Made by a program: the position numbers and the translations under genes. Under the pieces are notes generated by a model, which had not been told where the DNA came from, did no database searches, and saw only the letters and a program-made list of their open reading frames with translations. This document shows, piece by piece, positions 7,890 to 53,668 of a stretch of 64,000 nt of DNA; positions within the stretch are counted from its first letter, which is position 1, and each line of letters starts with the position of its first letter. Source of the stretch: a virus; the IMG/VR virus record IMGVR_UViG_3300009177_000034, positions 5,374 to 69,373 of that record, one strand, 5' to 3'.

Positions 7890-7904
7890 GGAGTCCCCCT
7901 GTTG

Positions 7905-9509
7905 TCAGCGTGGCACGGACGCGCGCACGACGCCGTCCAGGGACAGCGTCACCGTGCTGGCCGTGACCTCGCACCGGAGCGTGAAGGTCGAGCCCGCGGG
8001 GCACGGCGTGGTGCCGAGCGGGCACTTCGTCGGGTTCGGCACCGGCGCCAGGGCGCCGAGCGGGGTGGCCACCACCAGCGTCGTGCCGGTCAGGCGGGAG
8101 ATGCGGAGGCCGCTGGTCCCGCCCCACAGGCGCGCGCAGCGGTAGCCGGGCACGTCGACCTCGTACCTGGCGCCGGCGAGGCCGCGGTGCACGAAGGGCG
8201 TCGTCACGTCCGCACTGCCCGGCGGCGGCGGGGGCGGCGGTGGGGGTGGCGGCGGCGGCGGGGGCGGGGCGACGGCGCCGCCGATGACAACCTCGGCCCC
8301 CGCGCTCGGCGACGCGCTCCGCACCTCGACGGTGATCTGGCTCACCGGGTCCGTCCAGGGCACGCCGACGGGCAGCGGGGAGCCCGGCGCGCCCACGCCC
8401 GGGGTCATGTCGAGGAGGAAGATGCCGTTGCTGCTGCCGCCCGTCTGCAGATGCACCAGCGTCCCGCCCGGGATGGTGTTCCCCGCGTTGACGCCGCGGT
8501 ACTCCAGGTAGAGGGCGTCCCCGGTGCCGGTGCGCCGCAGTTCCAGGGCGCTCGCGTTCGTCTCGTAGGGCAGCAGGCGATAGGTCCCCGCCGTCACGAC
8601 GCGCGGCTGCACCCACCCGGCGATCTTCTTCTGGGCCGCGTTCGGGTGGAGCGCGGCGCCGCCCATCACGTCGGCGGTGTCGCCGTACTCGCTCGTCGCG
8701 CAGCCCGAGGCCTTGAGCGGGACCGTGCCGCATTGCATCGAGTGCGAGTGCCACCAGCCGAGGTTGTGCCCGAGTTCGTGGAGCGACAGCATGGCGTAGG
8801 CCGTCGAGCCGTTGATCCACGCGCTCGACGGGTTGCCGCCGACGGTGCCCAGGCCAGCCCAGGGGCACGCGGCGCTCGACGGCTGCGCGTAGAGCTTGTG
8901 CATGTAGCGCGACAGGTCCACGCCGGCCGCGCGCGCCGCCGCGTCGGCCTTGCTGGCGTTGCCCCAGTAGTCGCAGGCCCCCGACGTGGCCGCGATGGCG
9001 AACGGCCCGACCGCCGTGACGGCCATGTCGAGGGCGCCGTAGGAGACCTCGCGATAGAACCGCGTGATCTCCGCCGCAGTTCCGGCGACGGCGGCGGGGG
9101 AGCGGGCGAGGTTCGGCTTGTCGGCGTAGTCGAGCAGGATCAGCACGACGGCGTGCGTGCCCCCGACGAGGCCGAGCGTCTGGGCGGCGCCGCCGGCGCG
9201 CTGGACGAGCGGGACGACGGTCCACTTCGGGCCCGGCTCGCGCGTGATGCGGACGCGGTCCCCGGACTGAAAGCGCGTGTCCGCCGCCGTGGTGCGGCGG
9301 AACACGAAGCAGCCGCCCGTGTCGGGGCAGACGCTGTAGACGTAGTGGCCGCCGCCGTGGCCGTCGTCAACGTGGAGCACGCGCACGACGCCGTCCAGGG
9401 TGACGCCGACCGGGGCCGCGGCCACCCGGGCGGGCGCCGCGGGGGCCACCGCCGGGGTGGCGAGGGCGCCCAGGAGCAGCAGCAGGCCCGCGAGCGCCTC
9501 GGCCCTCAT
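7905..9509 (-). CDS. secreted zinc metalloprotease (M11 gametolysin/M6-like)
   Basis: signal peptide, HELGHNLGWWH, EYGD..DVMG Met-turn, poly-Pro linker. Confidence 0.85.
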   Translation of the reverse strand: MRAEALAGLLLLLGALATPAVAPAAPARVAAAPVGVTLDGVVRVLHVDDGHGGGHYVYSVCPDTGGCFVFRRTTAADTRFQSGDRVRITREPGPKWTVVPLVQRAGGAAQTLGLVGGTHAVVLILLDYADKPNLARSPAAVAGTAAEITRFYREVSYGALDMAVTAVGPFAIAATSGACDYWGNASKADAAARAAGVDLSRYMHKLYAQPSSAACPWAGLGTVGGNPSSAWINGSTAYAMLSLHELGHNLGWWHSHSMQCGTVPLKASGCATSEYGDTADVMGGAALHPNAAQKKIAGWVQPRVVTAGTYRLLPYETNASALELRRTGTGDALYLEYRGVNAGNTIPGGTLVHLQTGGSSNGIFLLDMTPGVGAPGSPLPVGVPWTDPVSQITVEVRSASPSAGAEVVIGGAVAPPPPPPPPPPPPPPPPGSADVTTPFVHRGLAGARYEVDVPGYRCARLWGGTSGLRISRLTGTTLVVATPLGALAPVPNPTKCPLGTTPCPAGSTFTLRCEVTASTVTLSLDGVVRASVPR

Positions 9510-9694
9510 GCCACCCGCCGCAGGCCGCGCGCGTACTGGTTGTCCTCGCGGAGCCGCACGTTCTCCTCCAGCAGACTCACGCACTTGAGGCGCCAGTAGT
9601 CGGCCAGGTCCAGGGCGATCTCGATGTTCGACCGGCGCGCGGGCGGCGCCGGCGTCACCGGCCGCCCGGGCTGGCCCCGCCCCGCCTGGTTCAC
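9506..9694 (-). CDS. small coiled-coil protein
   Basis: GTGA and ATGA overlaps with both neighbours. Confidence 0.5.
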   Translation of the reverse strand: MNQAGRGQPGRPVTPAPPARRSNIEIALDLADYWRLKCVSLLEENVRLREDNQYARGLRRVA

Positions 9695-9996
9695 GAGCGG
9701 GTCCGCCGCTCCGCCGTGGGCGGCGGGGCCAGGGGCGGCATCGGGACGGGCGGGAGGTCGGCCAGCACCGCGAGCGCCTGGTCCACGCTCATGTCGAGCA
9801 TGGCCTGCGCGGCGGCCTTCTGCGCGGGCGTCGCCGCGGGGTGGTCGTTCAGGCGGCCGAGCAGGTCCTTCCACATGTCCAGCAGCGCGGCGTAGGCGTT
9901 GAGGGCCATCGGACGGATCGTGGTATACCCCTCGCCGAGCAGCTTCATGGCGGGGCCGATCAGTTGGAGCGCACCGAGGATCGCGGCAATGCTCAT
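9691..9996 (-). CDS. hypothetical protein
   Basis: AGGAGG RBS, 101 aa. Confidence 0.7.
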   Translation of the reverse strand: MSIAAILGALQLIGPAMKLLGEGYTTIRPMALNAYAALLDMWKDLLGRLNDHPAATPAQKAAAQAMLDMSVDQALAVLADLPPVPMPPLAPPPTAERRTRS

Positions 9997-10026
9997 AGGG
10001 GCCTCCTATGCTAGGTTGTCCGGGCG

Positions 10027-10488
10027 ATGGCGGGCCACGCACGGCGTCCAATGTCGGAGCGCTTCTGGGCGAAGGTCGATAGGAACGGCCCCCTGCATCC
10101 CGTCCTCGGCACGTCGTGCTGGCTCTGGATGGGGGCGCAAGACCGAGGCGGCTACGGACGGCTTGGTCGGCCAGGAAAGCACGGGGGCACTGTCTTGGCG
10201 CACCGATATAGCTTTGCCCTGCACGGCGGCAGCGAAGAACTCCTTGTGCTCCACCGATGCGATAGGCCCGCCTGCGTGAACCCCTCCCACTTGTTCAGCG
10301 GGACCGACGCCGACAACCTCGCGGATGCGCTGTCGAAAGGGCGTGCTTCTTGTCTCCGGTTGGCCGCCATCACCCACTGCCCGCGAGGACACGAGTACTC
10401 CTCGGAGAACATCTACCGGAGCCCCAGGAACCAGAGTCGCGCATGCCGCCAGTGTCGCCGCGCCCGCGATCTGGCCCGACCTCGGTGA
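10027..10488 (+). CDS. HNH homing endonuclease, antisense to the operon
   Basis: [42 protein letters not shown]. Confidence 0.92.
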
Positions 10489-10493
10489 GGGCG

Positions 10494-10859
10494 TCACTTT
10501 TTAGAATCCACCACCGAGCGGAGGGCGACATACCGCGACTCCAGGGTGGCAAGCTGCCCGTCCACGGTCGCGCGGGCGGCCGCGTCCGGGCCGCTGCGGA
10601 CGGCGCGCCACTGGGTCGTGAGGGCGGGGAGCGCCGTCTTGGCGCCGGCGACGTAGGCGTTCCAGGCCGTCACTTCGGCGGGCGTGACCTTGTTCGCCGC
10701 GCTCAGGGCCACATAGTCGGCCTGGGTCGTGACGATGCCGGTGGCGAGCGTCAGCAGGCGGTCGTCGGCCGTCGGGGCCGGCGGCGTCGACAGCGACGCG
10801 CAGCCGACGACGATGAAGGCCAGGGCCAGCAGCACGGGGAGCAGGAGGAGTCGACGCAT
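10494..10859 (-). CDS. lipoprotein (possible spanin component)
   Basis: MRR-hydrophobic-VVGC lipobox; AAGGAG RBS. Confidence 0.7.
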   Translation of the reverse strand: MRRLLLLPVLLALAFIVVGCASLSTPPAPTADDRLLTLATGIVTTQADYVALSAANKVTPAEVTAWNAYVAGAKTALPALTTQWRAVRSGPDAAARATVDGQLATLESRYVALRSVVDSKK

Positions 10860-10972
10860 GGCGGGGTTCTCCTTCGCCCAGTCGGGCGGGTTGAAGGCGG
10901 AGTGGTGCCACCAGTAGACCCGACGCGGGGGCCCGGCAACAGGGGACCTTAGTCCACCGTCGCCTGGCCCCC

Positions 10973-11377
10973 TCACGGCCCCTTCGGTCCGATCTGCTTT
11001 TGCAGGTCCGCGATCCGGTCTTTCGTTTCCTGCTGGGTCGGTTCCTTGATCGAGGCGTACGCCTGCGAGGCGTTCCAGCGCGCCATGATCTCCACCGCCA
11101 GCACCGGGGCCACCGCCGCCTTGACTTCCGGGGCCAGGTCCGGGCTGGTCTTGACGTACTCCAGGATGGCCTCCGGTGACTTCGGGTGCAGCCGGGGGTT
11201 GGTCACCGAGTACATCGTCGCGGCGACAACGAAGCCGTACACGCCGCCCATCGCGAGTTCGAACCACGTCGCCGTCCGGTTCAGTTGGTAGGCGCCCGAA
11301 AACCCGCTGATGAACGCCAGCACGTGCAGCGCGATCTCTTGCAGGGTGACGGTCTGGATGGATTCACGGAGGGTCAT
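10973..11377 (-). CDS. putative holin
   Basis: two N-terminal hydrophobic segments and a charged C-terminus; lysis region. Confidence 0.5.
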   Translation of the reverse strand: MTLRESIQTVTLQEIALHVLAFISGFSGAYQLNRTATWFELAMGGVYGFVVAATMYSVTNPRLHPKSPEAILEYVKTSPDLAPEVKAAVAPVLAVEIMARWNASQAYASIKEPTQQETKDRIADLQKQIGPKGP

Positions 11378-11387
11378 GCGCGGCCTT

Positions 11388-12248
11388 TCATCGCGGGCGG
11401 GTCGTCGACCGCGTGTCCGTCTCGGTGCCGCCGCCGCTCGGGTTGAAGCCGCCGGGCGACGGCGGGGCATAGATCACTTGCGGCGTCGGCGCCGTGAGCC
11501 GCGCCATGAGCGGCGCGCCGATCAGGGCGACGATGAGCCCGCCCACGGCGAGGAGGATCGCCACCGTCGAGGAGATGCCCTCGCTTTTGCCGGTGTTCGT
11601 CGACTGCGTGCGCGCCATGGCCTCGACGAGCCCCTGGAGCTTATCCATCTGCGGGTCGACGACCGTCTGCTTCCCCTTGCCCTCGGACAGCGCGAGTTCG
11701 ATGGCCTGCAGGCGCTTGGTGGTGTCGTTGTACTGCGCGGAACTGCGCGCCTCCGCCGCCAGGGCCGTGTCGGAGACCTGCTTCTGGAGCGTCGTGGCCA
11801 CGTCCGTCGTCTGCGCCGCGAGCGTCGAGATGGCCAGGTTGGCCGCCGTCGTGGCCTTCGCCACGTCCTCGCGGTCGACCTGGCGGATGCTGTCCAGGCG
11901 GCCCGCCTCCGCGTGCAGGAGCTTGTTCTGGAAGTCCTCGCGCATGGTGGCGATTTGGGTCTCAAGCTGGGCGCGCAGCAGGAGCAGTTCCTTGGTGTGC
12001 GCGTGCTGGAGGTCCGAGATTTCCCGGTCCTTTTCGCGCAGGTCGTCCTGGCGGCGCACCGCCGCCTCGTTCAGGGCAATGACGTTCGCGGTCGGATCGA
12101 TGACGGGATTCCCCAGGAAGTCCACCCCTTGGCCGTGGGGCGGGACGGTGACGGTGCCCCGCGGCGCCGGCGGCGGCGTGCGCGTCATCGCGCGGCGGAC
12201 CGCGCTGGGCGGCGCGTCGTCTGGCTTCGTCTCCCGTCGTCGGCTCAC
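11388..12248 (-). CDS. coiled-coil protein with C-terminal TM helix
   Basis: long heptad region followed by VAILLAVGGLIVALIG. Confidence 0.7.
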   Translation of the reverse strand: MSRRRETKPDDAPPSAVRRAMTRTPPPAPRGTVTVPPHGQGVDFLGNPVIDPTANVIALNEAAVRRQDDLREKDREISDLQHAHTKELLLLRAQLETQIATMREDFQNKLLHAEAGRLDSIRQVDREDVAKATTAANLAISTLAAQTTDVATTLQKQVSDTALAAEARSSAQYNDTTKRLQAIELALSEGKGKQTVVDPQMDKLQGLVEAMARTQSTNTGKSEGISSTVAILLAVGGLIVALIGAPLMARLTAPTPQVIYAPPSPGGFNPSGGGTETDTRSTTRPR

Positions 12249-12333
12249 CTCGGGCCGTCCCCTGGGCGCTGCGGTCGCGGTGCCGCCCCTAGCATAGCGG
12301 CCCGGCCGCGGCGGGCCCCTATTCCACGTGCCG

Positions 12334-12885
12334 TCACCCGGCCTCCGCCGCGAAGGTGGCGACGCGGTGCTGCACCGTCGAGGCCCCCGGCGTCAGGACG
12401 AAGAAGCCGACGGCCCCCGTGCACACCTGGCCGACCGCCGCGGCGAGTTGCACCTGGTTCAGCGTCAGCGACACGGCCGCGCCGAGGGCCTCGGCCTCCA
12501 GGGCGAACGGCACGTGCGGCGTGGGGTTGGCCACCCGCGCCGCCCGGAGGACCTGCTCCCGCCCGTTGACGACCTCGGCGATGCGGACGAGCGGGCTCCC
12601 GCCGGCCTGGCGGTAGACGGTCAGGAAGTTCAAGGGGTCCTGATAGCGGAGCAGCAGGCCGAAGCGGGGCCCCTGGGCCACGTCGCCGCACGTGAAGCGC
12701 GCCCGGACCGTCTGGTCCGCCGTCGCCACGTCCAGGCGGAGGGCGACGTGGAGGCCCGGGCGCGGCCAGGTCTCGGCGGCCCCCTGGTGGATCGCGTACC
12801 CCCCGAGGGGCACCGTCCAGTCGGTCGCGAGGGGGCCGTCGGGGCGGTCGAAGAAGTCGGCGACGAGGCGGGGCGCTGGCGGCAT
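12334..12885 (-). CDS. beta-sandwich (lectin/LamG-like) tail-associated protein
   Basis: DFFDRPDG start, beta-rich, GAVGF motif; GGAGAG RBS. Confidence 0.55.
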   Translation of the reverse strand: MPPAPRLVADFFDRPDGPLATDWTVPLGGYAIHQGAAETWPRPGLHVALRLDVATADQTVRARFTCGDVAQGPRFGLLLRYQDPLNFLTVYRQAGGSPLVRIAEVVNGREQVLRAARVANPTPHVPFALEAEALGAAVSLTLNQVQLAAAVGQVCTGAVGFFVLTPGASTVQHRVATFAAEAG

Positions 12886-12900
12886 GGGGTCGCCCTCTCC

Positions 12901-15546
12901 CTAGCGTTCGGGGCGGATGGTCTGCAGCGAGGGCCCCTGGGTGGCCCGGCGCTCGACACCCCCCGTCCGCGGCAGCGTGGCGCCCCGCTCCACCTCGACC
13001 AGCCCGGGCACGCCCGGCGCCGTGGGCGCGAGACTGACGAGCTTGCCCTTCGGCGTCAGCGTGGCGTCGACCTCGGGGTAGAACTTCGTGGTGGGGTCGA
13101 GTGTCGGCAGCCCTTTCGCGTCCCAGGCGACGATAAAGCGCCCGCCATCGGCGAGCGCCCCGGGCCGGGGCACGGGCGGATACGTCAGCGCGCGGAGGGC
13201 CCGCTCGGCCGGGGGTGGCGCGTCGCGCGTGTAGAGCATGTCGGGCCGCAGCAGGTGCCAGTACCGCTCCCCGGCGTGGCTCGGGGTGCCCGCATGGGCG
13301 GGGTCCGGGTCCTCGGGCAGAAACTCGTCGAGCACGAGGCGCTTCGGATTCGTCGGCGTGTCGTCGGCGTGCGTCACCAGCGCGATGCGGCGCGTGGCCC
13401 CCGTCGTCAGGTTCGACAGCAGCGCCTCGCGCCACTGCTCGCTGAATGCCGCGCCGAGGGGCTGATACGACCGATACCACAGCGCGTGGGACAGGCTCGC
13501 GCTCAACACCCGCTGCTCGGGCGAGGAGAACCGACGCAGCTCGACCCACCAGCCGCTCTCGGCCGTCCCGCCCGCGGCCAGCGGCACCACCTTGTGCGTA
13601 TCCAGGTCGACGGACCAGGCGCTCATCCAGCTTCGGGCGAGGCCCGCGCCCGTCGGCGTGTAGGACTTGAACGCGAGCAGAATGACGCGCCCGAGGGCCA
13701 GCGTGGGCGCCTGGCCGGGCGTGGCGGGCCGCAGGCGCCCGGGCACGTAGAAGCCCGAGAAGGCAATTCCCGTGGTGCGCTCGGTGATGGTCTCGTGTTG
13801 GGTCACGGTCAGATGCGCGTTGTAGTAGCTGGCGGCCAGCGTGTCGGCCGAGTCCGAGTAGTAGCCGTCCCCGAGGTTGGCGTCGCTGGCGTGCCCGTTC
13901 ATGTGCGTCAGCGCGGTGCTGGGCCCGGGGTACTGGCCCCGATAGACCAGCGTCTCGTCGCGCGTGGCAAACCAGCGCTTGGTCAGGTCCGGGCCCATGG
14001 GCGCCTCGCCCAGGGCCGCGAGCAGGGCGGGATCGACGCACACGTCCGCGCGCGCATAGGTGCGCTCCGCCGCCCAGGCCACGGTGGGCGTCGTCAAGGG
14101 GGTCACGGCGGGGTCGACAAACGCCCCGGTGCCGAAGCTGACGCCCCCCAGCCCCGCCCCGCCGATGGTGCCCGTGTGGACCGTGCCCTCGTACCCGTCG
14201 GGAGCGGTCGCCATGGCGACCGGCAGGAACTCCCACACGCCCCCCTCGAACGGGGCCCAGCGCCCGGCGGGCCAGCGGGACGGATCGAAGGTCCGCGTCT
14301 GCGTGGTGTCGGTGGTGACCGGGACGCGGTCGACCGTCGCGCTGCCCACGGCGAGCAGGTTGCGCACGGTATCGGTGAGCGTGGCGTCGACCGCCGTTTT
14401 CCACAGCACCGTGCCCGTCGTGCCATTGATGAGGAACAGGTGGCGCTCGTCGGGCTCCAGGCGCACGGTGCTCGCGACGCCCGGCGCGACGACGCCCGTG
14501 GGGATCGGCGTCGTGACCGCCCACAGGTCGACGGTCACGGTATAGATCAGGTCATGGGCGTCGTTCAGCGTGACGCCGAGCATGTGGGCGCTCGGCTGCT
14601 TGAACAGCGGCGGCCCGTAGGGCGCAAACCGGGCTTCGGTCAGCCGCACCGGCCACGTCGCCGTCACGGCATAACTCGCGGGGTTCTGGGGATCATCCCC
14701 CACCGTTGTCGTCCGCGCGTCGGTCACGTCCACGTCTGCGCCGAGCAGGCCCAGGCCGTCGGCGGGGACCGGCGTATGGCCCGCATCGCTCAAAGTCTCC
14801 GGCCACGCGCGCGGCGTCGTGACTTCGGTCGCGACCTCGGTCACGGTCAGGCGGGTGCGCGTGCGCGTGCCGGTCGCCGTGCCCGTCAGCGTGAGCAGCA
14901 GCGGCTCTTTGTCCCACGGGTGCTCCGTCCGCACGTAGCTCACCGCGCCGACGCGCGCGCCTTGCGGCTTGTTGGGCGTGCGCGCCAGCGTGAACACGCT
15001 GTAGGTGTCGGACGGCCCCGCCCAGCGCGCGACGAACGACGCGCCGTCCGTGCCCCATTGCACGAAGTCGAAGCCCGGAAAGAGGTCGCTCGTCCGCGCG
15101 TCCATGAACTCCCGCACGGTGGGGGCCGGGCCGCCGCCCGTCGCGCCGGCCATGCGGAGGGGTTGGACGGTGCGCGCGTTGCGAAACCAGACCGTCCCGT
15201 CCACCTGGTGGATGAAGATCTCCTCGACGAGGGGGTCCGTGACCGCCCCGAGCGGCGGCACGGGCATCCCACGGCGGGCCTCGTGCTTCAGGACGAGCCG
15301 CCGCCGCGGCGTCCGCGTCGTGGCCCCCGGCGGGCGGCTGTAGAGGACGGGCACCTGGTCGCCGGCCTCGATGCCCTTCGCCACCCCGCTGGTGCGGAGG
15401 GCGTCGCCGCCCACCAGCACGTCGCCGTCGCCCAGGACGGCCTGCACCGGCTCCGTCTTGACGAAGGGGACCTTGCGCTTGCCCAGGATGTAGTCCAGGG
15501 CCGCGGTGATCGCGGCCGTCAGGTTCGGGCTGTCGCCGCTCGCCAT
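12901..15546 (-). CDS. minor tail protein
   Basis: 881 aa, Thr-rich, distal tail module. Confidence 0.7.
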   Translation of the reverse strand: MASGDSPNLTAAITAALDYILGKRKVPFVKTEPVQAVLGDGDVLVGGDALRTSGVAKGIEAGDQVPVLYSRPPGATTRTPRRRLVLKHEARRGMPVPPLGAVTDPLVEEIFIHQVDGTVWFRNARTVQPLRMAGATGGGPAPTVREFMDARTSDLFPGFDFVQWGTDGASFVARWAGPSDTYSVFTLARTPNKPQGARVGAVSYVRTEHPWDKEPLLLTLTGTATGTRTRTRLTVTEVATEVTTPRAWPETLSDAGHTPVPADGLGLLGADVDVTDARTTTVGDDPQNPASYAVTATWPVRLTEARFAPYGPPLFKQPSAHMLGVTLNDAHDLIYTVTVDLWAVTTPIPTGVVAPGVASTVRLEPDERHLFLINGTTGTVLWKTAVDATLTDTVRNLLAVGSATVDRVPVTTDTTQTRTFDPSRWPAGRWAPFEGGVWEFLPVAMATAPDGYEGTVHTGTIGGAGLGGVSFGTGAFVDPAVTPLTTPTVAWAAERTYARADVCVDPALLAALGEAPMGPDLTKRWFATRDETLVYRGQYPGPSTALTHMNGHASDANLGDGYYSDSADTLAASYYNAHLTVTQHETITERTTGIAFSGFYVPGRLRPATPGQAPTLALGRVILLAFKSYTPTGAGLARSWMSAWSVDLDTHKVVPLAAGGTAESGWWVELRRFSSPEQRVLSASLSHALWYRSYQPLGAAFSEQWREALLSNLTTGATRRIALVTHADDTPTNPKRLVLDEFLPEDPDPAHAGTPSHAGERYWHLLRPDMLYTRDAPPPAERALRALTYPPVPRPGALADGGRFIVAWDAKGLPTLDPTTKFYPEVDATLTPKGKLVSLAPTAPGVPGLVEVERGATLPRTGGVERRATQGPSLQTIRPER

Positions 15547-15547
15547 G

Positions 15548-15787
15548 TCACGGCCCCCCTAGCAGGGTATATTTGCCGCCCGTCGACTTGACCAGGTGCA
15601 CGACCATCCCGGCCTGCATCGGCTGGTCTGTCGCGGGCTGGACGAGCACGATGAGGCCCTCGACCCGGCAGTAGACGCTGCCGTCGACGCGCAGTTCGGT
15701 GACGACGCCCGTCCGCACGATCTGATTTTGCTTCGCGACGAGCGCCTGCACCGCGCCCGTGAGCGTCGTCGACGTGCGGGCGGCCAT
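15548..15787 (-). CDS. small tail-tip protein (OB-fold-like)
   Basis: RTGVVTEL.VDGSV; TGATG coupling. Confidence 0.6.
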   Translation of the reverse strand: MAARTSTTLTGAVQALVAKQNQIVRTGVVTELRVDGSVYCRVEGLIVLVQPATDQPMQAGMVVHLVKSTGGKYTLLGGP

Positions 15788-25076: not shown

Positions 25077-25808
25077 TCATTCGACAAACTCGATGGCGGC
25101 CAGGCGCGGATTGTAGCGGGCGTCGGCCGCGGCGGGGGCCACGCGCCCGATCCACAGGAACGCCCACCCGCCCGGCGGCACGGCCCCGAGCAGGACCGGG
25201 TTGCGCGACAGCGTCCCGCTGACACCGTAGGTCGGGGCGGCGCCCCCGGTGGTGTTCGCGGCGGGCGGCACGCCGGCGGTGGCCGCGCTGCCGTCGTCCT
25301 CGACGGTGACGCTGCCGCTCCCCGCGGGGGCGGCGATCAGCGTGGCCCCGCTGTAGGTCCCCGGCGCCAGGGTGCGGTAGAGGCGGTAGCCCGACGCCCC
25401 CGGCACGGCGGCCCAGGTCCAGGTGATCACCTTCGTCGGGTCGTCCAGCGACACCGACACCTCGCCGCTGGCGACCGTCTCGCCCGCCCCGTTGAGGGCC
25501 GTGACGACGGCGCCCACCAGGGCCACGGCGGCCCAGACGCCCCCCGCGCCCGTCGCCGACAGGACGGCCCCGAGGCCCGTCGGGGGCGACAGCGTCCCGG
25601 TGTCGAGGCCGATCCGCAACTGGCTCGCCCCGTCGTTGAGGCCCGTGGCCTTGATGCGCGCCTGCCAGGTCGACGGCCACGCCTCGTCGCCCGTGTTGCG
25701 GATGCCGAGCTTGAACGGCGTGTCGGTGCTGCCGCCGAGCAGTTCGGGGAGTTCCTTCCCGGGGATCGGCGTGCCGCCGTCGCTGTCGTAGAACGTGGCG
25801 TTTCGCAT
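25077..25808 (-). CDS. minor tail protein with Fn3-like insert
   Basis: VTALNGAGET.AS..TWAAVPGASGYRLYR. Confidence 0.72.
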   Translation of the reverse strand: MRNATFYDSDGGTPIPGKELPELLGGSTDTPFKLGIRNTGDEAWPSTWQARIKATGLNDGASQLRIGLDTGTLSPPTGLGAVLSATGAGGVWAAVALVGAVVTALNGAGETVASGEVSVSLDDPTKVITWTWAAVPGASGYRLYRTLAPGTYSGATLIAAPAGSGSVTVEDDGSAATAGVPPAANTTGGAAPTYGVSGTLSRNPVLLGAVPPGGWAFLWIGRVAPAAADARYNPRLAAIEFVE

Positions 25809-25914
25809 CAGCGTGTCTCCGCGCTAGGATGCATCGGCCTATGCCCGCCCGCCAAGGAACGCCGTCGACGGGTTGGACGCGAGCGCGGAAGGACCGAATC
25901 GGCGCCTCCAAAAC

Positions 25915-27207
25915 TCAACGTGGCCACCGCTGGCCTCCCATGTGAGCGTAGCGGTCTTTCAGGCAGATGAGATGGGCCTCGATGTAGGGGCACGCGTTGT
26001 CGCGGTGCCACTGGGACGGGTAGATCTCCTGCACGCGACTCTCCGCGAAGCGCGCGGTCAGCGCGGGCACATACCTGGCGAACGCTGGGTCTGTCACGTA
26101 CAGGAAGCTGTTCTTCACGTAGTACGCGCAATGGGTCGGGTCCTGGAACGCCCCCTGCCCGAGCGCGGACGGCGTCATTGACAGGAACCATCCGCCGGGC
26201 GCGAGCACGCGCCACGCCTCGTTGAAAACGTGGATCTTGTCAGGAATGTGCTCCAGCGCGTCGTGGGCCCGGAGCACCCCCACGCTGCTGTCCGCCAGCG
26301 GCCAGCGGCCGCGCAGGTCGGCGACGATGCCACCCGGCGTCGGGGTCACATCGAGCGGCACGAAGCCCGGCGCCGGGTCCAGGCCCCCGCACAGGTCGAC
26401 GCAGGCCAGGCCCGCGTCGCGCGCGCCCTTGACGGCCAGCGGCCAGACGTGGCGGTTGTAGACGGCCTCCGTCCACTGCCGGATCTCGGCGTTCCGCGTC
26501 GCCACCGCGTTGCCGCCGTGCACCCGGTACAGGTAGAGCGGGCGCGGGATGCGCTCGATGCGCTGGCCCGCCAGGTAGCCGCGGCACAGGAGGTCGTGGT
26601 CGTCGGCGAAGGGCAGGGCGCGGTCGTGGCCGCCGACGGCGGCGTAGGCGGCGCGCGTCCAGGCGCGGACGTGGTTCGGCGCCCAGTCGACGTAGCGGAG
26701 GTTCTGGGGCGTCACCGGCGGCGCCGCCATCGCGACGAGCGCATGCCCCGCGTACGTCATGGGATAGGACGCCCACCCGAAGTCCGCGCTGTAGGTGTTC
26801 GGGGCCCAGGTGCCGTGGTGGAACTCGGCGAAGTCGCTGTAGACCACGTCCGCCCCCGCGCCGAGGGCGGCCACCACGTCCGCGAGGGCGTCGGGCGTCA
26901 GCAGGTCGTCGGCGTCGAGTTCCAGGAAGATCGCGCCCGCCGCCTGCTGACAGCAGGCCTGCTTGAGGGCGCCGACCCCCTGGAGGTCGGGCGGCGCCGG
27001 CCAGGTCCGCACGCGCGCGTCGCGCGTGATCTCGGCGGGCAGCACGCCGCCGTGGTTGGTCAGGACCAGCCACTCCCAGTGCGCGTAGGTCTGGCGGCGG
27101 AGCGACTGCCAGGCCTCGGCCACGAAGGCGTTCCCCGCGGCGTGGAGCGGGGTGATCACCGACACGAGCGGGCCGGCGGGCCGCGTCCCGTTGCGCCGCG
27201 CGCCCAT
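25915..27207 (-). CDS. GT2 glycosyltransferase fused to a SAM methyltransferase-like domain
   Basis: VSVITP..LELDADD (DxD)..DDHDL..LYLYRVH, then DLCGG..DL..WPLADSSV..HDALEH..RVLAPGG. Confidence 0.88.
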   Translation of the reverse strand: MGARRNGTRPAGPLVSVITPLHAAGNAFVAEAWQSLRRQTYAHWEWLVLTNHGGVLPAEITRDARVRTWPAPPDLQGVGALKQACCQQAAGAIFLELDADDLLTPDALADVVAALGAGADVVYSDFAEFHHGTWAPNTYSADFGWASYPMTYAGHALVAMAAPPVTPQNLRYVDWAPNHVRAWTRAAYAAVGGHDRALPFADDHDLLCRGYLAGQRIERIPRPLYLYRVHGGNAVATRNAEIRQWTEAVYNRHVWPLAVKGARDAGLACVDLCGGLDPAPGFVPLDVTPTPGGIVADLRGRWPLADSSVGVLRAHDALEHIPDKIHVFNEAWRVLAPGGWFLSMTPSALGQGAFQDPTHCAYYVKNSFLYVTDPAFARYVPALTARFAESRVQEIYPSQWHRDNACPYIEAHLICLKDRYAHMGGQRWPR

Positions 27208-27344: not shown

Positions 27345-29252
27345 TTACGGCGCGCGGAACGCGAGCATCGTCGACACGATTTGGGTGATGTCGCTCGTCG
27401 CCGCGCCCTGGCCGGTGAACTTGACCGTCGTCGTGCTCGTCCAGTCAATCCCCGTCAACGCGGTCTGCCCGATGACGCGCTCCAGCGCGTTCGCGCCGCT
27501 CAGGCTTCGGAACACCGTCCCGAACACGCGCGCGCTCGTCGCGCCCACGTAGACGATCCGGACATCAACGAGGAGAAACCCGTTCGCAGGCGCCGTCGTC
27601 ACCGTGTTCAGCACAATCTCCGTGCCGCCGACGACGAGCTTCATCGTTTTTGTGTTCGCGTTGTTCGCGACCTGGAGATTCGCCACGACGTGCAGCCCGC
27701 TATCGGTCACGAGCGTGTTCGCCGGGACCGTCCAGGTATGCAGCGTCGTTTCGACGGTCGTCCCGTTCGCCACGCTCGCGCCAGAGATGTACCCCCGCGT
27801 CGTGACCGTGATCGCGGGGTCGGCGCCCGAGATGACGATGCCGCCCGCGCCGGTCAGGACCACGGGCGGATGATCCAGCGTCGTCCCGGTCATCGTCAGG
27901 CCCGTCCCGAGCGTGATCTCCTGCGGGTCGCCCGCCCCCCCGGCGCTGCCGCGGCCGAGGAGCTTACTCGCCGCCGAGACATCCTGGATCTTGGCATACG
28001 TGACCGTGTTACTCGGGATCTGGCTCGCGGCGATTGAGTCCGTCAGCCCCGAGAATAACGTCGTGCCGGCGCCCCCCTGCGGCCCGGTCAACCCCTGCGG
28101 GCCCTGCGCGCCCGTGGCGCCCGCCGCCCCCTGAGCGCCCTGCGGGCCCGTCGCGCCCACGACGCCCTGGGCTCCCTGAGCGCCGGGGCTGCCGGTCGTG
28201 CCGGTGGCCCCCTGCGGCCCCGCGGCGCCTTGCGCGCCCGTGGCGCCCGCGTCGCCCTGGGAACCCGCCGCCCCCGCCGCGCCTTGCGGACCCGCCGTGC
28301 CCTGCGCGCCCGTGGCCCCCTGAGGGCCGGCGGCGCCCTGGGGGCCCTGGGGGCCGGTGCTCCCGGTCGTGCCGGTCGCGCCCTGCGCCCCGGTCGCGCC
28401 CGCGTCCCCCTGCGGCCCCGCGGCGCCGACCGCACCCTGTGGGCCTTGCGGGCCCGTCGCGCCCGTGGCCCCGAGGGCGCCCTGCGCGCCGGTCGCCCCG
28501 GCCGCGCCCTGGGGGCCCGTCGACCCCACGGCGCCCTGCGGCCCGGCGACGCCCTGGGTGCCCTGCGCGCCCGCGCTGCCGACGCTCCCGGGTGCGCCCT
28601 GCGGACCCGCCGCCCCCTGGGCACCCGCCGCGCCGCCGGCCCCCTGCGGGCCGGTGCCGCCTGGCCCCCCCTGCGGTCCCGCCGTCCCCTGCGGACCCTG
28701 GGCGCCGCCGCCCTCGCCGTCGCCGCCCCCGCTGGCGCCCTGCGGCCCCTGCGCGCCGGGCGACCCTTGCGGCCCCTGCGGGCCGGGCGGGGGCACGGGC
28801 GGCGTCCAGGCCAGGGCGGCCAGCGGCACCGTGCCCGTGTAGTCCTGGCCGCGGAGGACGGCAATCGCCAGGATCTCCAGGTCCAGCGTGTACTCGTAGA
28901 GTTCGGGCATGCCCCGCGCCTTGACAGGGCTCCACGTCTCGATGCGGACCGTGCAGTCGTTGCCCTCGCTGTCCTGGAGGCGCCAGGCCTCGCCGCGGAG
29001 CGCGTCGTTCCAGTCCATGTCACGGACCACGTCGACGTTGAGCCACTGCGTTCCCGACTCCAGGTGGATGACGGCGTCGCGCGCGTGCTTGCCGAACTCC
29101 TGCGTCGTGACGCTCCCGCCGAGGCCCCGGTACTTCGCCTGCCGCTTCGGCCACACGAAGCCGTAGCTCGTCGGGTCCGTCGTCAGCGTGACGGAGCGGC
29201 CCAGGGTGCCGAGGGCGGTCAGGATCACGGTGCCGCGGGTGGGGATGGCCAC
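27345..29252 (-). CDS. distal-tail-like protein fused to a collagen-like fibre
   Basis: first structural gene after the tape measure; long Gly-X-Y tract; beta-rich C-terminus. Confidence 0.8.
28060..28790 (-). repeat. collagen Gly-X-Y repeat
   Basis: [12 protein letters not shown] triplets. Confidence 0.95.
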
Positions 29253-29284
29253 TAAGACCGTGCCTCCTGCGCTAGGATGCGGCC

Positions 29285-29794
29285 ATGCGACAACGACCGC
29301 TCGCCTATCGGCGGTACTGGCTCATGCGCGCGCGATGCGAGAATCCCCGCAACAATCGCTTCCGCCTCTATGGTGCGCGCGGCATCACAGTCTGCGCCGA
29401 ATGGCGCGCCGACTACGCGGCCTTCCTGCGTGACATGGGGCCGTGTCCGTCGCGCGCGCACTCGCTCGACCGGATCGACCCGGACGGCAACTACGAGCCC
29501 GGAAACTGTCGCTGGGCGACGGCGACGGAGCAGGCCCGCAACCACCGGAACGCGCGGCTCCTGACGCATGACGGGCAGACGCGCTGCCTCGCCGAGTGGG
29601 CCGAGCACGTCGGCCTGTCGACGGGGACGCTCTGGTATCGACTGCGTGCCGGGTGGCCGCTGGCGCTCGCGCTGTCGGCCCCGCTCGGGGCCGTGCGGCA
29701 CGAGATCCCCGTCGAGGTCCGGCGGGCGGCGGGACGGGCAGGAGCGCGGGCGCGGTGGCATCCTAGCTCCTCTGTCTCTCGGCATCCAAGCTAG
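29285..29794 (+). CDS. HNH homing endonuclease, antisense to the operon
   Basis: [39 protein letters not shown]. Confidence 0.9.
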
Positions 29795-40552: not shown

Positions 40553-41053
40553 CTACTCCAGGGCGTCCTGCCGCATGGGGCGCCGCCGGTTTCGAGCCTG
40601 CTCTGCCCGTGTTGCCCAGCGAAGGTTCCCCGCCTCGTACCCCCGGCCATTGTCGACGCGGTCAAGCGTATGAGCCGGGGAGGGGCGCGGGCCGACGTGG
40701 GCGAAGAACGTCTCGAAGTTGAGCATGGCTGGCGCCACGGCAATCCCGCGTCCGGCGTAGTCTTTCGCCTGCGGATGGTCTGGGCGACACCGTCGGATCA
40801 TATTCTGGTGGGCCAGGTACTCCGGGAGGCGGCTCCCTCCGTAGCGGAGCGAGCGTTCTCGGGTCAACTCCAGGCTGGCGCAGCCGCACGAGGTTGTGTG
40901 GCCGCTTTTGAGGTTGCCCTGGTCGACGATGCGCTCGTTCCCGCAGGCGCACCGCACCTGCCACGTCTTGAGATAATGCGGCCGCGTCGGACCGGCGCCG
41001 ACAACAGTCAGCCGGCCAAACGTGCTGCCCACCTCGACGGCGTCGGACCGCAC
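40553..41053 (-). CDS. HNH homing endonuclease
   Basis: FGRLTV..RCACG..SCGC..YAGRGI..TLDRVDN..YEAGNLRWAT. Confidence 0.9.
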   Translation of the reverse strand: MRSDAVEVGSTFGRLTVVGAGPTRPHYLKTWQVRCACGNERIVDQGNLKSGHTTSCGCASLELTRERSLRYGGSRLPEYLAHQNMIRRCRPDHPQAKDYAGRGIAVAPAMLNFETFFAHVGPRPSPAHTLDRVDNGRGYEAGNLRWATRAEQARNRRRPMRQDALE

Positions 41054-41333
41054 TGGCGCGCTACTCCAGGGCCGACCGGGGCACCGTCACGCTCCGGGGG
41101 CGCCCCGTCGCGTCGACGACCCGGACCCGCCGCCCGCGCCCGCTCACGCGGGTCACCGTGCCGGCGAGGCCGGCCGCCCAGGCCAGCGACGGGCGGAGGG
41201 CGTTGGCTGCGGGCAGGGTCACCGCGCCGCCCCGCACGTCCGCCTCGGCCTCTGCCGCCGCCACCGGGTCTGTCATGCGTCTGAGTCTACGCTGCGGCGC
41301 GTACGAAGCGGGCGCGTTCATTCAGCGCTCGAT

Positions 41334-48943: not shown

Positions 48944-49345
48944 TCATGGGGCGACCTTGGCCCAGAGCGTCTCCCAGGCGGCTAGCTCGTCGTCGGTCAG
49001 CTTCGTCAGGTCCGGGCGCTGGCCCACGAAGCCGGAAAGCTCCGTCTTGTCCTTGCGGCCCCAGCGGTCGGTGGCCCGCCGCTCCAGCCACCACTGCAGC
49101 GCCTTGGCGTCCTTCTCGCCGAACTTCATCATCCGGCCGACGGCGAGGATCTCGGCGTCGAGTTCTGCGTCAAGCACTGCTTGGCGAAACGCCTCATATA
49201 TCGCGCCCTTCCGATGCATCCACTTCGACATGGTCGTGGGGTCTAACCCCACGCGCTGGGCGGCGATTTCCCGGAAGTTCCCAGCGCGCAGGTAGCGCAC
49301 AATCTTTTCCACCAACTCGGGCGTGCAACGGGTTGGCCTACCCAT
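48944..49345 (-). CDS. terS: terminase small subunit
   Basis: MGRPT..TPE....I...L..GN....AA HTH and WWLERR; upstream of terL. Confidence 0.75.
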   Translation of the reverse strand: MGRPTRCTPELVEKIVRYLRAGNFREIAAQRVGLDPTTMSKWMHRKGAIYEAFRQAVLDAELDAEILAVGRMMKFGEKDAKALQWWLERRATDRWGRKDKTELSGFVGQRPDLTKLTDDELAAWETLWAKVAP

Positions 49346-49874
49346 CGGGGACCTCGTTCAGCCGGGCGTAGTCACCGAAGCGCCGACGGGCCGCCCTGTT
49401 GTAGGCGCGCGCGGCCTCCGCCTCGGTGGCGAAGGTGCCGACGGAGCGGGTCTGGAGACGCGCCTCCCAACGGCCAGACGCACGCTGGCGGACGCCCAAG
49501 AACCGACTCGCCCGGCCACGGGTGAGACTGTCGCGCCGCCCTGCGAGATTCTGGCTCCGGGTGGCCAGGCGCAGATTGGCGCTCCGGTTATCCACCACCA
49601 TGTCGGCCTCGCGGTGTTCGCGGTGGTCCACGTCCTCCCGCCGCCGTAGCCGTCGGCCGAGCTTGGCTTCTAGCAACACGCGATGCACCCAGGCCATCGG
49701 GCCCCCACGGCGCCCCGTCCGCACATGCGCGACTGCGTACACTCGGGCCACACTGCCGTCCCGGCGGCGCACCACGCTGGCGCAGGCCTTCCCGAGGCCA
49801 GCGGCAGCCAGGATCGCGGGCGCGTCGTCGTCCAGGAGCATCGTGTAGCCCCTCGTCAGAGAAACCTCAACCAC
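49338..49874 (-). CDS. HNH-AP2 homing endonuclease
   Basis: LTRG..LDD..HR..VDH..DNR..NLRLAT..QN..GV..WEA..GTF.TE.EAARAYN. Confidence 0.88.
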   Translation of the reverse strand: MVEVSLTRGYTMLLDDDAPAILAAAGLGKACASVVRRRDGSVARVYAVAHVRTGRRGGPMAWVHRVLLEAKLGRRLRRREDVDHREHREADMVVDNRSANLRLATRSQNLAGRRDSLTRGRASRFLGVRQRASGRWEARLQTRSVGTFATEAEAARAYNRAARRRFGDYARLNEVPDG

Positions 49875-50286
49875 GGGTGTCCACCAGAGGCCGGGCGGCG
49901 TCCAGGGCCGCCCAGGGCACCACGAGGGCGCCCTCCCGGAAGGGCGTCAGGCGCGCGATGACGACCTGGCTCTCACTCTCGCCGACGATGCGGGTCGGGA
50001 CGAGCGTCACGATCTGGTAGCCGAAGCGGGCCAGGCGGGTCGCCTCGGTCGGGGTGAGCCACCACGCCAGGCCGGCCAGCGATCGGCAGGCGCTCCCCAG
50101 GTGCTCGCCCGGGAAGGCGCGGAGCGGGACGGAGGCGAGCGACCAGCCGAGTTCCTCCCAGAACGGACGGGGGCGCGGCGGGGCGTCGCCGTCCTCGGCG
50201 TCCGACCAGCGGCGCGAGAAGCCGGGGCGGAAGGGCCCGCGCCCCTCGGCGTCCTGGACCCGCCAGACGGGGGCGAGCCTATCCAT
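49867..50286 (-). CDS. hypothetical protein
   Basis: VWRVQD.EGRGPF N-terminus, 139 aa, overlaps neighbours. Confidence 0.65.
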   Translation of the reverse strand: MDRLAPVWRVQDAEGRGPFRPGFSRRWSDAEDGDAPPRPRPFWEELGWSLASVPLRAFPGEHLGSACRSLAGLAWWLTPTEATRLARFGYQIVTLVPTRIVGESESQVVIARLTPFREGALVVPWAALDAARPLVDTRG

Positions 50287-53667: not shown

Positions 53668-53668
53668 G

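What the first reader, a model, noticed from the sequence alone, without database searches (positions are those of the whole stretch)
10006..10497. Antisense HNH gene covered by a sense-strand bridging ORF coupled at both ends
Seen: the + strand HNH (10027-10488) is codon-aligned with a minus ORF (10497-10006). That ORF's GTG overlaps the upstream lipoprotein stop (GTGA), and its TAG is part of the next gene's RBS (TAGGAGG). The HNH has its own extended -10 (TGcTAGGTT, 10009-10017). Established: codon-aligned antisense frames are often open in GC-rich genes. Inference: the exact coupling at both ends keeps ribosomes on the operon mRNA and makes the insertion non-polar.
Basis: partly seen in the sequence, partly recalled or inferred. 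Interest (0 to 1): 0.7.

Follow-up and report, generated by a model that had tools for sequence, protein, structure and literature searches.

The report
Stop-free bridge over backward HNH gene
A selfish DNA-cutting (HNH) gene sits backwards between two late genes of a soil phage, and the operon strand across it is one unbroken reading frame that starts on the stop of the gene before it and ends on that gene's old stop codon, which may let ribosomes cross the insert, although translation has not been shown.

Summary
The + strand gene 10027-10488 is a real, intact HNH endonuclease. The minus ORF 10497-10006 is its codon-aligned mirror frame, with no protein signature of its own.

New here: a contig from another metagenome lacks the HNH. 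In it the lipoprotein gene ends at the same TAG (10008-10006) that now ends the bridge. So the TAG-in-RBS signal is inherited. The insert is about 485 bp, and the GTGA start exists only in the HNH-bearing allele.

At this locus alone the open frame is unremarkable (chance about 0.25). A second backward HNH (29285-29794) and a short relic (25808-25945) in the same genome show the same layout.

My survey of 22 backward HNH clusters from other phages found:
- open mirror frames in 7, against 3.8 expected (P 0.046, not robust to stricter filters);
- frames open and coupled at both ends in 4, against 0.47 expected (P 0.0002, criteria partly post hoc);
- stops in the frame in 15 of 22.

I rate a translated, non-polar bridge at about 0.5 and an unselected by-product at about 0.4. 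There are no expression data. The scan has noted the same pattern before on other DNA. I found no published description.

The parts
10027..10488 (+). Free-standing HNH endonuclease gene (153 aa; possible alternative start at 10051)
   Evidence: phrog_826 E 4.1e-38. Pfam HNH_3 scores 19.9 bits, below its 24.8 cut-off. 136 tblastn-confirmed relatives in IMG/VR. All 24 positions that match it in >=85% of 61 aligned sequences include the H/N core and the Cys/His zinc motifs. GC3 is 0.77, against 0.92-0.94 in the neighbours.
10006..10497 (-). Bridge ORF (163 codons plus stop), the codon-aligned mirror frame of the HNH gene
   Evidence: GC1/2/3 is 0.76/0.58/0.67, which is the HNH pattern mirrored. 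No Pfam or PHROG family. It is open because the HNH has 0 TTA/CTA/TCA codons among 15 Leu and 12 Ser.
10494..10497 (-). GTGA: the bridge start GTG overlaps the lipoprotein stop TGA
   Evidence: In the HNH-less allele the same place reads GCC CGA, with no start and no stop (my hand reading).
10006..10008 (-). TAG: the bridge stop, which is also the ancestral stop codon of the lipoprotein gene and overlaps the g101 SD
   Evidence: In the HNH-less contig of run X4 the lipoprotein frame ends on this TAG (hand translation).
10010..10494 (.). Inserted HNH cassette, net 485 bp (boundary ambiguous by one A: 10009-10493 or 10010-10494)
   Evidence: one contig joins 10009 to 10521 with 26 other letters between. 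Those 26 letters encode a C-terminus homologous to the one at 10520-10497.
10010..10018 (+). GCTAGGTTG motif, a putative -10 region 9 nt before the HNH ATG (leaderless or near-leaderless mRNA inferred)
   Evidence: GCTAGGWTG occurs exactly 5 times in the window against 0.30 expected; 0 of 100 shuffles reach 5. Copies also sit before HNH2 and before the relic ORF.
10494..10859 (-). Upstream lipoprotein gene (121 aa)
   Evidence: GC3 is 0.92. Its only match among 5.8 billion proteins is itself.
9691..9996 (-). Downstream gene g101 (101 aa) with SD AGGAGG at 10007-10002
   Evidence: GC3 is 0.94. No family hit.
29252..29794 (.). Second backward HNH (29285-29794, +) with its own bridge. The bridge ATG at 29761 lies 1 nt after the tape-measure TAG and follows GAGGAG. 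The bridge TAG at 29254-29252 overlaps the next gene's GTG.
   Evidence: phrog_3377 E 1.9e-50. 0 TTA/CTA/TCA codons. The bridge has no PHROG hit.
25808..25945 (.). Short relic: a GCTAGGATG motif, a 34-aa + ORF, and a minus frame running from TTGA (25918) to TGATG (25810-25806)

Best explanation
SHOWN
- A compact mobile cassette of about 485 bp carries a GCTAGGTTG promoter-like motif and an intact HNH endonuclease gene.
- It was inserted backwards exactly at the junction where the lipoprotein stop codon (TAG) overlaps the ribosome-binding site of g101, in the late operon of a 72% GC soil phage.
- The HNH has no TTA, CTA or TCA codon, so its mirror frame on the operon strand is open.
- That frame starts at a GTG overlapping the new lipoprotein stop (GTGA). 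It ends on the old lipoprotein stop, 9 nt before the g101 ATG.

INFERRED
- Ribosomes that finish the lipoprotein re-initiate at the overlapping GTG.
- They translate the 163-codon frame as a pass-through whose product has no function of its own.
- They terminate on the g101 ribosome-binding site.
- This restores the chain of translational coupling that the insertion broke, and keeps the roughly 500 nt of antisense-HNH RNA covered by ribosomes.
- Selection acts as a filter. Backward inserts that happen to be bridged in this way are less harmful and persist more often. The bridge is helpful rather than obligatory.
For: 1. Anatomy.

2. Before-and-after alleles.
- One contig of run X4 lacks the cassette. 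It shows 8 differences over 10521-10776, and the 4 that are listed all fall at lipoprotein third codon positions.
- In that contig the lipoprotein frame ends on TAG 10008-10006, directly on the g101 SD.
- Identical HNH-bearing contigs cover both junctions in 4 of 4 other runs.
- The GTGA exists only in the HNH-bearing allele.

3. Recurrence in this genome.
- HNH2 and the relic have the same start-on-stop and stop-on-start layout.
- By my arithmetic the joint chance for the two HNH loci is about 0.01. This uses open 0.27-0.48 times 1 frame of 3 that has both signals.

4. Independent loci.
- Of 22 backward HNH clusters, 7 have a fully open mirror frame against 3.77 expected (P 0.046).
- 9 have some open operon-strand frame against 3.88 expected (P 0.0034; controls 43 of 238).
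- 4 (L222, L246, L275, L046) are open and coupled at both ends against 0.47 expected (P 0.00024).
- Exact overlaps: L222 atgccTAG and TGAatg; L246 GTGA and TAGtg. Both have GC3 of 0.54-0.59, where the pooled controls are open in 6 of 47.

5. Context. In L246, L250, L046 and L260 the flanking genes are tail or connector genes.

6. The bridge ORFs are not proteins of any known family: 0 of 7 have a PHROG hit.
Against: - There are no expression data of any kind.
- At this locus alone the open frame has a chance of about 0.25. 2 of 5 sense HNH genes in the same genome are equally stop-free.
- Native genes of this genome are so poor in TTA/CTA/TCA (0.37 per 100 codons) that a 154-codon mirror frame would be open 57% of the time.
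- The TAG and RBS are inherited, not evolved for the bridge.
- The GTG has no SD. g101 has a strong SD of its own and needs no relay.
- The operon-strand RNA over the cassette has C/G 0.96, against 1.24-1.31 in the flanking genes. It is not an obvious Rho loading site.
- 15 of 22 backward HNH clusters have stops in the mirror frame, and 13 of 22 have no open frame at all. A bridge is therefore not required.
- The enrichment is fragile. It is 4 of 11 against 2.91 (P 0.31) when both neighbours are >=100 aa. It is 6 of 21 against 3.71 (P 0.12) without L250, which shares its context with L222. The raw Fisher test gives P 0.19.
- The newest sets gave 1 of 4 against 0.89.
- Controls of the L222 clade are open in 6 of 32 at GC3 0.5-0.65. 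The baseline for three of the open cases may therefore be about 0.19, not 0.09.
- The coupling windows were fixed after I had seen 6 of the 7 open loci. The any-frame statistic was defined after seeing the data.
- Gene calls in the survey are a home-made GC3/length heuristic.
Confidence: 0.5

Rival explanations
1. Unselected by-product. The cassette landed at a coupled gene junction. Its mirror frame is open only because GC-rich genes seldom use TTA/CTA/TCA. The frame stops at the inherited lipoprotein stop by a one-in-three frame coincidence, and it starts at a GTG that any ...G TGA gene end provides. Whether or not a few ribosomes use it, it has no effect on fitness. g101 is translated from its own SD, and transcription runs through regardless.
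For: - Chance of an open frame is about 0.25 here. 2 of 5 sense HNH genes in the genome are open. Native genes give 0.57.
- The TAG is inherited.
- g101 has its own SD AGGAGG.
- 15 of 22 backward HNHs elsewhere are not bridged.
- The enrichment disappears under stricter neighbour filters.
- There is a clade effect on the baseline.
- C/G over the cassette is 0.96.
- Large mirror ORFs cover ordinary genes in this window, for example + 7902-9599 over the M11 peptidase gene and + 12328-15591.
Against: - Two HNH loci and one relic in the same genome are all coupled at both ends.
- 4 of 22 independent backward clusters are open and doubly coupled against 0.47 expected.
- There are open frames in mid-GC loci (L222, L246, L250) where pooled controls are open in 6 of 47, or 6 of 32 within their own clade at GC3 0.5-0.65.
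- In 6 of the 7 antisense loci where exactly one frame carries both local signals, that frame is the mirror frame.
Confidence: 0.38
2. Programmed -1 frameshift. The lipoprotein gene ends T AAA AAG TGA, close to the X XXY YYZ slippery pattern, and the -1 frame is the bridge frame. A fraction of ribosomes would slip and make a lipoprotein with a 160-residue extension instead of terminating and re-initiating.
For: The sequence TCT AAA AAG TGA at 10505-10494, and the frame relation, are seen. A stop codon directly follows the heptamer.
Against: - The first letter is T, not A, so P-site re-pairing would be imperfect.
- There is no structure signal downstream: MFE -41.0 against a shuffle mean of -42.2, z +0.34.
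- The other bridged loci show no such heptamer.
- The HNH-less allele has no heptamer.
Confidence: 0.05
3. The minus ORF is the real protein-coding gene, and the HNH reading is the shadow or a dead remnant.
For: The ORF has operon-like start and stop placement.
Against: - The HNH matches phrog_826 at E 4e-38 and keeps all conserved catalytic and zinc residues.
- The minus frame has GC3 0.67, against 0.92-0.94 for real minus-strand genes.
- It has no family hit.
- The whole segment is absent from a related allele.
Confidence: 0.02

Closest known systems
Free-standing homing endonuclease genes of T4-type phages (seg and mob genes; review PMC2988022, passages read). This includes segD, which lies antisense between late genes 23 and 24, and mobE, which is coupled to nrdA by UAAUGA.
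   Same: An endonuclease gene inserted between essential phage genes. The review states the principle that an invader must fit the host's expression programme. Start/stop overlaps are used for coupling. There is one known backward case (segD).
   Different: In T4 the coupling concerns the endonuclease's own translation in the sense direction. For segD the review describes flanking terminators and no operon-strand ORF. Here the coupled ORF lies on the other strand and would serve the host operon.
ShiLan-type hidden out-of-frame HNH insertions in actinophage methylase genes (PMC11855218, abstract and passages read)
   Same: An HNH gene lies in a frame other than the one the host translates, and the host frame stays free of stops across the insert.
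   Different: There the insert is on the same strand, inside the host gene, and is read in-frame as part of the host protein. Here the HNH is on the opposite strand. The host gene stops (TGA), and a separate ORF in the -1 frame takes over.
Inteins with antisense homing endonucleases in actinobacteriophages (bioRxiv 10.1101/2025.01.02.630785, passages read).
   Same: An endonuclease is encoded antisense to a frame that must be translated across it.
   Different: There the translated frame is an intein that splices out of an essential protein. Here there are no splicing domains, the insert is intergenic, and translation of the frame is not proven.
Ambigrammatic narnaviruses (PMC8316113, PMC8155312; only the search listing and the starts of the abstracts were seen)
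   Same: A codon-aligned reverse ORF made by avoiding the three codons that mirror stops. It is reported there to need translation but not to encode a functional protein. This is the same logic as a pass-through bridge.
   Different: Those are RNA viruses of eukaryotes, the reverse ORF spans the whole genome, and no operon or coupling is involved.
Shadow ORFs of GC-rich genes, and pseudo-ambigrams produced by GC3 bias (PMC13262655, PMC8850804; search listing only)
   Same: Long open mirror frames arise without selection when TTA/CTA/TCA are rare, as in this 72% GC genome.
   Different: Shadow ORFs are not expected to start on the previous gene's stop and end on the next gene's start. They are also not expected in loci with mid-range GC (L222, L246).

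Membership tests
HNH endonuclease (phrog_826 / Pfam HNH_3 type) | Significant match to the family profile | tested here: met
   phrog_826 E 4.1e-38, with six further HNH PHROGs. Pfam HNH_3 reaches only 19.9 bits against a cut-off of 24.8, so the Pfam threshold itself is not reached.
HNH endonuclease (phrog_826 / Pfam HNH_3 type) | Conserved His/Asn core and Cys/His zinc ligands present | tested here: met
   H59, H76, C78, C83, H88, N97, H117, C118, H122, C140 and C143 are each shared with >=85% of 61 aligned sequences. Which residue is catalytic is recalled, not tested.
Free-standing homing endonuclease gene | Present in some and absent from other closely related genomes at the same site | tested here: met
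   One contig lacks the cassette and identical contigs carry it in 4 of 4 runs. Only 21 letters of the HNH-less contig lie on the g101 side, so this rests on a short anchor plus the reading-frame fit.
Free-standing homing endonuclease gene | Cleaves the empty site and spreads by repair (homing) | not testable with these tools
Foreign composition (GC3 0.77 against 0.93) is consistent with mobility.
Translationally coupled operon ORF | Start overlaps or abuts the upstream stop, and stop overlaps or abuts the downstream start or SD | tested here: met
   GTGA at 10497-10494. TAG lies within AGGAGG, 9 nt before the ATG at 9996.
Translationally coupled operon ORF | The frame is translated | not testable with these tools
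   No RNA or ribosome data could be laid on the locus.
Ambigram-like selected mirror ORF | The mirror frame is open more often than codon usage predicts | tested here: inconclusive
   This locus: chance about 0.25. Independent backward clusters: 7 of 22 against 3.77 (P 0.046), but 4 of 11 against 2.91 (P 0.31) under a stricter filter. Open and coupled: 4 of 22 against 0.47.
In-frame nested insertion (ShiLan-type or intein-type) | The host gene's own reading frame continues through the insert | tested here: not met
   The lipoprotein frame stops at TGA 10496-10494. The bridge is in the -1 frame.
Programmed -1 ribosomal frameshift site | An X XXY YYZ heptamer followed by a stimulatory structure | tested here: not met
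   The heptamer is T AAA AAG (first letter off). The downstream fold has z +0.34 against shuffles.

The most novel reading that the evidence does not exclude
Backward (antisense) homing-endonuclease cassettes in phage operons persist preferentially, or evolve, so that the operon strand across them is a stop-free frame with these properties:
- it is re-initiated at the upstream gene's stop;
- it ends on the downstream gene's start;
- its product is meaningless, and only its translation matters (protection from polarity, and delivery of ribosomes).

This would be the free-standing, intergenic counterpart of antisense-endonuclease inteins and of ambigrammatic RNA viruses. It would be a general rule for how selfish genes can be carried in reverse inside tightly coupled operons.
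Probability: 0.4. Interest if true: 0.8.

Novelty: new variant of a known kind. Interest (0 to 1): 0.6.

Why it matters
If ribosomes really cross backward selfish genes on a purpose-free frame, three things follow.

- It would be a new way in which mobile endonuclease genes limit their cost to the host.
- It would be a class of ORFs that are translated for the sake of translation, which annotation pipelines either miss or mislabel as hypothetical proteins.
- It would be a simple rule for engineering reverse-oriented cargo into phage operons without polar effects.

This locus adds something that the bare pattern lacks: a natural before-and-after pair. The HNH-less allele shows the original stop-on-RBS coupling. 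The HNH-bearing allele shows how the mirror frame re-links it. That defines clean constructs for a test.

Tried and rejected
Close relatives of the phage, sought to find the empty site:
- megablast of 8500-12500 against 50,697 phage records found nothing;
- g101 and the M11 peptidase found no relative in IMG/VR;
- the 286-aa protein found one distant locus, L082, without synteny;
- the lipoprotein matched only itself among 5.8 billion proteins.

Expression:
- No RNA holder was listed for 9400-11100, so expression could not be examined.
- All laid runs were contigs. Parts without cover say nothing.

Other checks:
- The sigma-70 scan found no promoter and only one weak terminator-like site inside the HNH.
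- The first Poisson regression of TTA/CTA/TCA counts on orientation (10 backward against 55 forward clusters) gave no effect (coefficient -0.22, P 0.34). It is dominated by a few backward genes with 5-7 such codons.
- A pooled-codon-usage estimate of the open-frame chance (0.05-0.09) was set aside. The empirical fraction is higher, so genes are heterogeneous.
- tblastn of HNH2 against the annotated phage collection (927 records) was not followed up. Orientation relative to the neighbours would need one call per record.
- The copy of GCTAGGTTG at 52360 has no + ORF longer than 40 aa starting within 60 nt.
- The protein-coding reading of the bridge was rejected.

Limits of the survey:
- Neighbour genes were called by my own heuristic: ORFs >=40 aa, ranked by GC3>GC1>GC2 at >=58% GC and otherwise by length, with neighbours within 350 nt.
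- Loci whose HNH ORF ran off the locus or lacked a start were dropped before clustering. I did not print their number.
- The 20 clusters with one unknown neighbour and one minus-strand neighbour (classes -? and ?-) were left out of both groups. One of them, L260, is described separately.
- Supplementary files of the papers were not opened.
Full report
WHAT IS THERE

The window is bases 5374-69373 of a 69,373-bp virus record with direct terminal repeats. It is 72.5% GC, and nearly all strong coding signal lies on the minus strand.

- A + ORF at 10027-10488 (153 aa) and a minus ORF at 10497-10006 (163 aa, GTG start). Their codons coincide, since 10027-10006 = 21.
- The GTG overlaps the TGA of the upstream minus-strand gene as GTGA. 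A TAA in the same frame lies two codons further up.
- The ORF ends at TAG 10008-10006 within TAGGAGGCCCCTATG, so the stop overlaps the SD of the next gene, g101 (ATG 9996).
- The upstream gene, from its ATG at 10859, starts MRRLLLLPVLLALAFIVVGC. By eye this is a lipoprotein signal.

WHICH STRAND CODES

The + gene is a real HNH endonuclease:
- phrog_826 at E 4.1e-38, with six further HNH PHROGs.
- Pfam HNH_3 is only sub-threshold, 19.9 against 24.8 bits.
- 136 tblastn-confirmed relatives in IMG/VR, at most 48% identical among the 80 that were kept.
- It retains all 24 positions shared by >=85% of 61 aligned sequences, including the His/Asn core and the Cys/His motifs.

Its GC3 is 0.77, against 0.92-0.94 in the neighbours, so it looks foreign.

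The minus ORF has the mirrored pattern (GC1 0.76, GC3 0.67) and no Pfam or PHROG hit. It is open because the HNH uses none of TTA, CTA or TCA among its 15 Leu and 12 Ser codons.

A NATURAL BEFORE-AND-AFTER PAIR

Nineteen metagenome runs hold at least part of this stretch. I laid the contigs of four of them.
- In all four, contigs without a single difference cover the HNH and one or both junctions: X2 9966-10412; X4 9779-10059 and 10233-10549; X3 10333-10709; X5 10410-10869.
- One X4 contig of 308 nt differs. It matches 10521-10776 with 8 differences. The 4 that are listed all fall at third positions of lipoprotein codons.
- That contig joins 10521 to 10009, with 26 other letters in between.

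Read by hand on the minus strand, its lipoprotein frame continues ...YVAL-KAVADAKAR and stops on TAG 10008-10006. The window has ...YVAL-RSVVDSKK-TGA at the matching place. From this:
- The two C-termini are homologous.
- The net insertion is 485 bp (10010-10494, give or take one A).
- The TAG that ends the bridge is the ancestral lipoprotein stop, sitting directly on the g101 SD.
- The window has AAG TGA (hence GTGA) where the HNH-less allele has GCC CGA.

Caveat: only 21 letters of that contig lie on the g101 side. The reading rests on that short anchor plus the exact fit of the frame.

IS THE LOCUS BEYOND CHANCE?

The open frame alone is not:
- 9 of 37 control HNH genes within 0.07 of its GC3 are stop-free in the mirror frame.
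- The logistic baseline gives 0.27-0.28.
- 2 of 5 sense HNH genes of the same genome are stop-free.
- Native genes here carry 0.37 such codons per 100, which would leave a 154-codon mirror frame open 57% of the time.

For the ends, only one of the three minus frames has both a start at the lipoprotein stop and a stop in the 30 nt before g101. Two of the three have a stop there. By my arithmetic the whole layout has a chance of about 0.09.

RECURRENCE IN THE GENOME

- A second backward HNH at 29285-29794 (phrog_3377, E 1.9e-50; no TTA/CTA/TCA). Its mirror frame has an ATG (29761) 1 nt after the tape-measure TAG, behind GAGGAG. It ends in a TAG that overlaps the next gene's GTG.
- A short relic at 25808-25945. 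A 36-codon minus frame runs from TTGA to TGATG across a 34-aa + ORF.

All three + units are preceded by GCTAGGWTG, placed 2-3 nt from the minus-strand SD of the downstream gene. The motif occurs exactly 5 times in the window against 0.30 expected, and 0 of 100 shuffles reach 5.

The joint chance for the two HNH loci is about 0.01 by my arithmetic. These loci generated the hypothesis, so they cannot also test it.

I did not make a full census of + strand genes.

INDEPENDENT SURVEY

I collected HNH loci from public contigs with five queries:
- the two window HNHs;
- the HNHs of L222, L275 and L260.

This gave 471 loci with a hit and 280 clusters at 80% identity with a complete HNH ORF. With my own crude neighbour calls, 22 clusters are backward to both neighbours, and 238 serve as controls.

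Open mirror frame:
- Fully open in 7 of 22 backward clusters, against 3.77 expected from a logistic baseline on GC3 and length (P 0.046).
- Controls by rising GC3 bin: 1/66, 6/47, 8/55, 13/44, 13/26. Backward: 0/2, 3/7, 2/8, 0/2, 2/3.

Results against the enrichment:
- With both neighbours >=100 aa: 4 of 11 against 2.91 (P 0.31).
- Without L250, which shares its context with L222: 6 of 21 against 3.71 (P 0.12).
- Raw Fisher test: P 0.19.
- The two newest sets alone: 1 of 4 against 0.89.
- Controls of the L222 clade are open in 6 of 32 at GC3 0.5-0.65, against 1 of 23 in the clade of the window's HNH. This raises the baseline for three of the open cases.
- 15 of 22 backward clusters have stops in the frame.

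Results for it:
- Some operon-strand frame is open across the HNH body in 9 of 22, against 3.88 expected (P 0.0034; controls 43 of 238). This statistic was defined after seeing the data.
- Coupling windows were written down, after I had seen 6 of the 7 open loci. With them, the mirror frame has a start at the upstream stop in 5 of 7 open loci (2.33 expected, P 0.03) and a stop at the downstream start in 5 of 7 (3.33 expected, P 0.13).
- Open and coupled at both ends: 4 of 22, against 0.47 expected (P 0.00024). Among the open loci: 4 of 7 against 1.33 (P 0.012).

The exact junctions:
- L222: atgccTAG and TGAatg.
- L246: GTGA and TAGtg.
- L250: TAAtg behind aggag.
- L260: TAAtg, then 343 codons.
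- L275: TAGcgcATG.
- L451 and L069: ATGA.

Where PHROGs give a name, the flanks are tail or connector genes (L246, L250, L046, L260). None of the 7 bridge ORFs tested has a PHROG hit.

HOW IT MOST LIKELY WORKS

Shown:
- A mobile HNH cassette went in backwards at a stop-on-RBS junction.
- The mirror frame now links the new lipoprotein stop to the old one.

Inferred:
- Terminating ribosomes re-initiate at the overlapping GTG.
- They read the frame as a pass-through and terminate on the g101 SD.
- The message stays covered by ribosomes and coupling is restored.
- Selection works as a filter on which backward inserts survive.

I put this at about 0.5. The unselected by-product reading gets about 0.4, for these reasons:
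- the locus alone is not improbable;
- the stop signal is inherited;
- g101 has its own SD;
- the RNA over the cassette is not C-rich (C/G 0.96 against 1.24-1.31);
- most backward HNHs are unbridged;
- my statistics are exploratory.

A -1 frameshift at T AAA AAG TGA is a minor alternative with no structural support (z +0.34).

WHAT IS KNOWN

- The T4 review (PMC2988022, passages) states that invading endonuclease genes must fit the host's expression programme. It describes sense-strand coupling (mobE, UAAUGA). It names segD as the one backward gene, between late genes 23 and 24, without any operon-strand ORF.
- ShiLan-type insertions keep the host frame open across a same-strand, out-of-frame HNH (PMC11855218).
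- Actinophage inteins can carry antisense endonucleases (bioRxiv 10.1101/2025.01.02.630785).
- Ambigrammatic narnaviruses are the nearest functional analogue (PMC8316113, PMC8155312; listing and abstract starts only).
- Four full-text searches found no description of an intergenic backward endonuclease gene bridged by a coupled ORF.
- Earlier notes of this scan describe the same pattern in at least eight other genomes. I used them as leads only.

VERDICT

The HNH itself is an ordinary new member of its family. The bridge is a candidate new variant of how homing endonuclease genes are accommodated. It is worth a direct test, and the two alleles found here supply the constructs.

Noticed in passing
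window 29271-29280 and 29758-29767: A 10-bp inverted repeat (GCTAGGATGC / GCATCCTAGC) brackets the second backward HNH. The right copy contains the tape-measure TAG and the bridge ATG. The HNH2 ORF runs 27 nt past it into the tape-measure gene's 3' end, although homology ends near residue 150.
   Followed up: partly
window 10494-10505, minus strand: The lipoprotein gene ends TCT AAA AAG TGA. T AAA AAG is one letter away from a classic -1 slippery heptamer, and the -1 frame is the bridge frame. There is no downstream structure signal.
   Followed up: partly
window 52360-52368: A fifth exact copy of GCTAGGWTG lies on the + strand inside the methyltransferase region. No + ORF longer than 40 aa starts within 60 nt.
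   Followed up: partly
window 9207-9633: Contigs of 3 of 4 other runs (X2, X3, X5) join 9207 to 9633, skipping 425 nt, with the same 36 other letters between them. This looks like a structural variant at the 5' end of the M11 peptidase gene and the spacer before g101 (the anchor on one side is only 21 letters).
   Followed up: no
window 7905-9584, minus strand: A 559-aa protein with a gametolysin-type M11 metallopeptidase domain (PF05548, E 2.2e-17), an HELGH motif and a run of about 18 prolines. It sits where a lysis enzyme might be expected.
   Followed up: no
G000 contig 1: 389-1991, and window 40553-41086, 49338-49946, 53155-53751: The 69-kb genome carries at least six further HNH-type genes in the sense orientation. 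This is an unusually heavy load of endonuclease genes.
   Followed up: partly
L260:2452-3480, minus strand: In an unrelated phage, the operon-strand frame starting at TAATG on the upstream stop runs 343 codons. That is the whole backward HNH plus 171 more codons, ending 12 nt before the major tail protein gene. It has no PHROG hit.
   Followed up: partly
Loci L046, L144, L222, L246, L275, L294, L450: In the 7 backward loci where exactly one operon-strand frame carries both a start at the upstream stop and a stop at the downstream start, that frame is the HNH mirror frame in 6. This includes two loci (L144, L294) whose mirror frame is full of stops. Part of this may come from the lower stop density of mirror frames.
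   Followed up: no
Phage records H4, H7, H16, H55: In several annotated Ralstonia phages, the feature under an HNH2-like tblastn match is named DarB-like antirestriction, Rz-like spanin or endolysin rather than HNH. These may be mis-annotations or annotated mirror ORFs.
   Followed up: no
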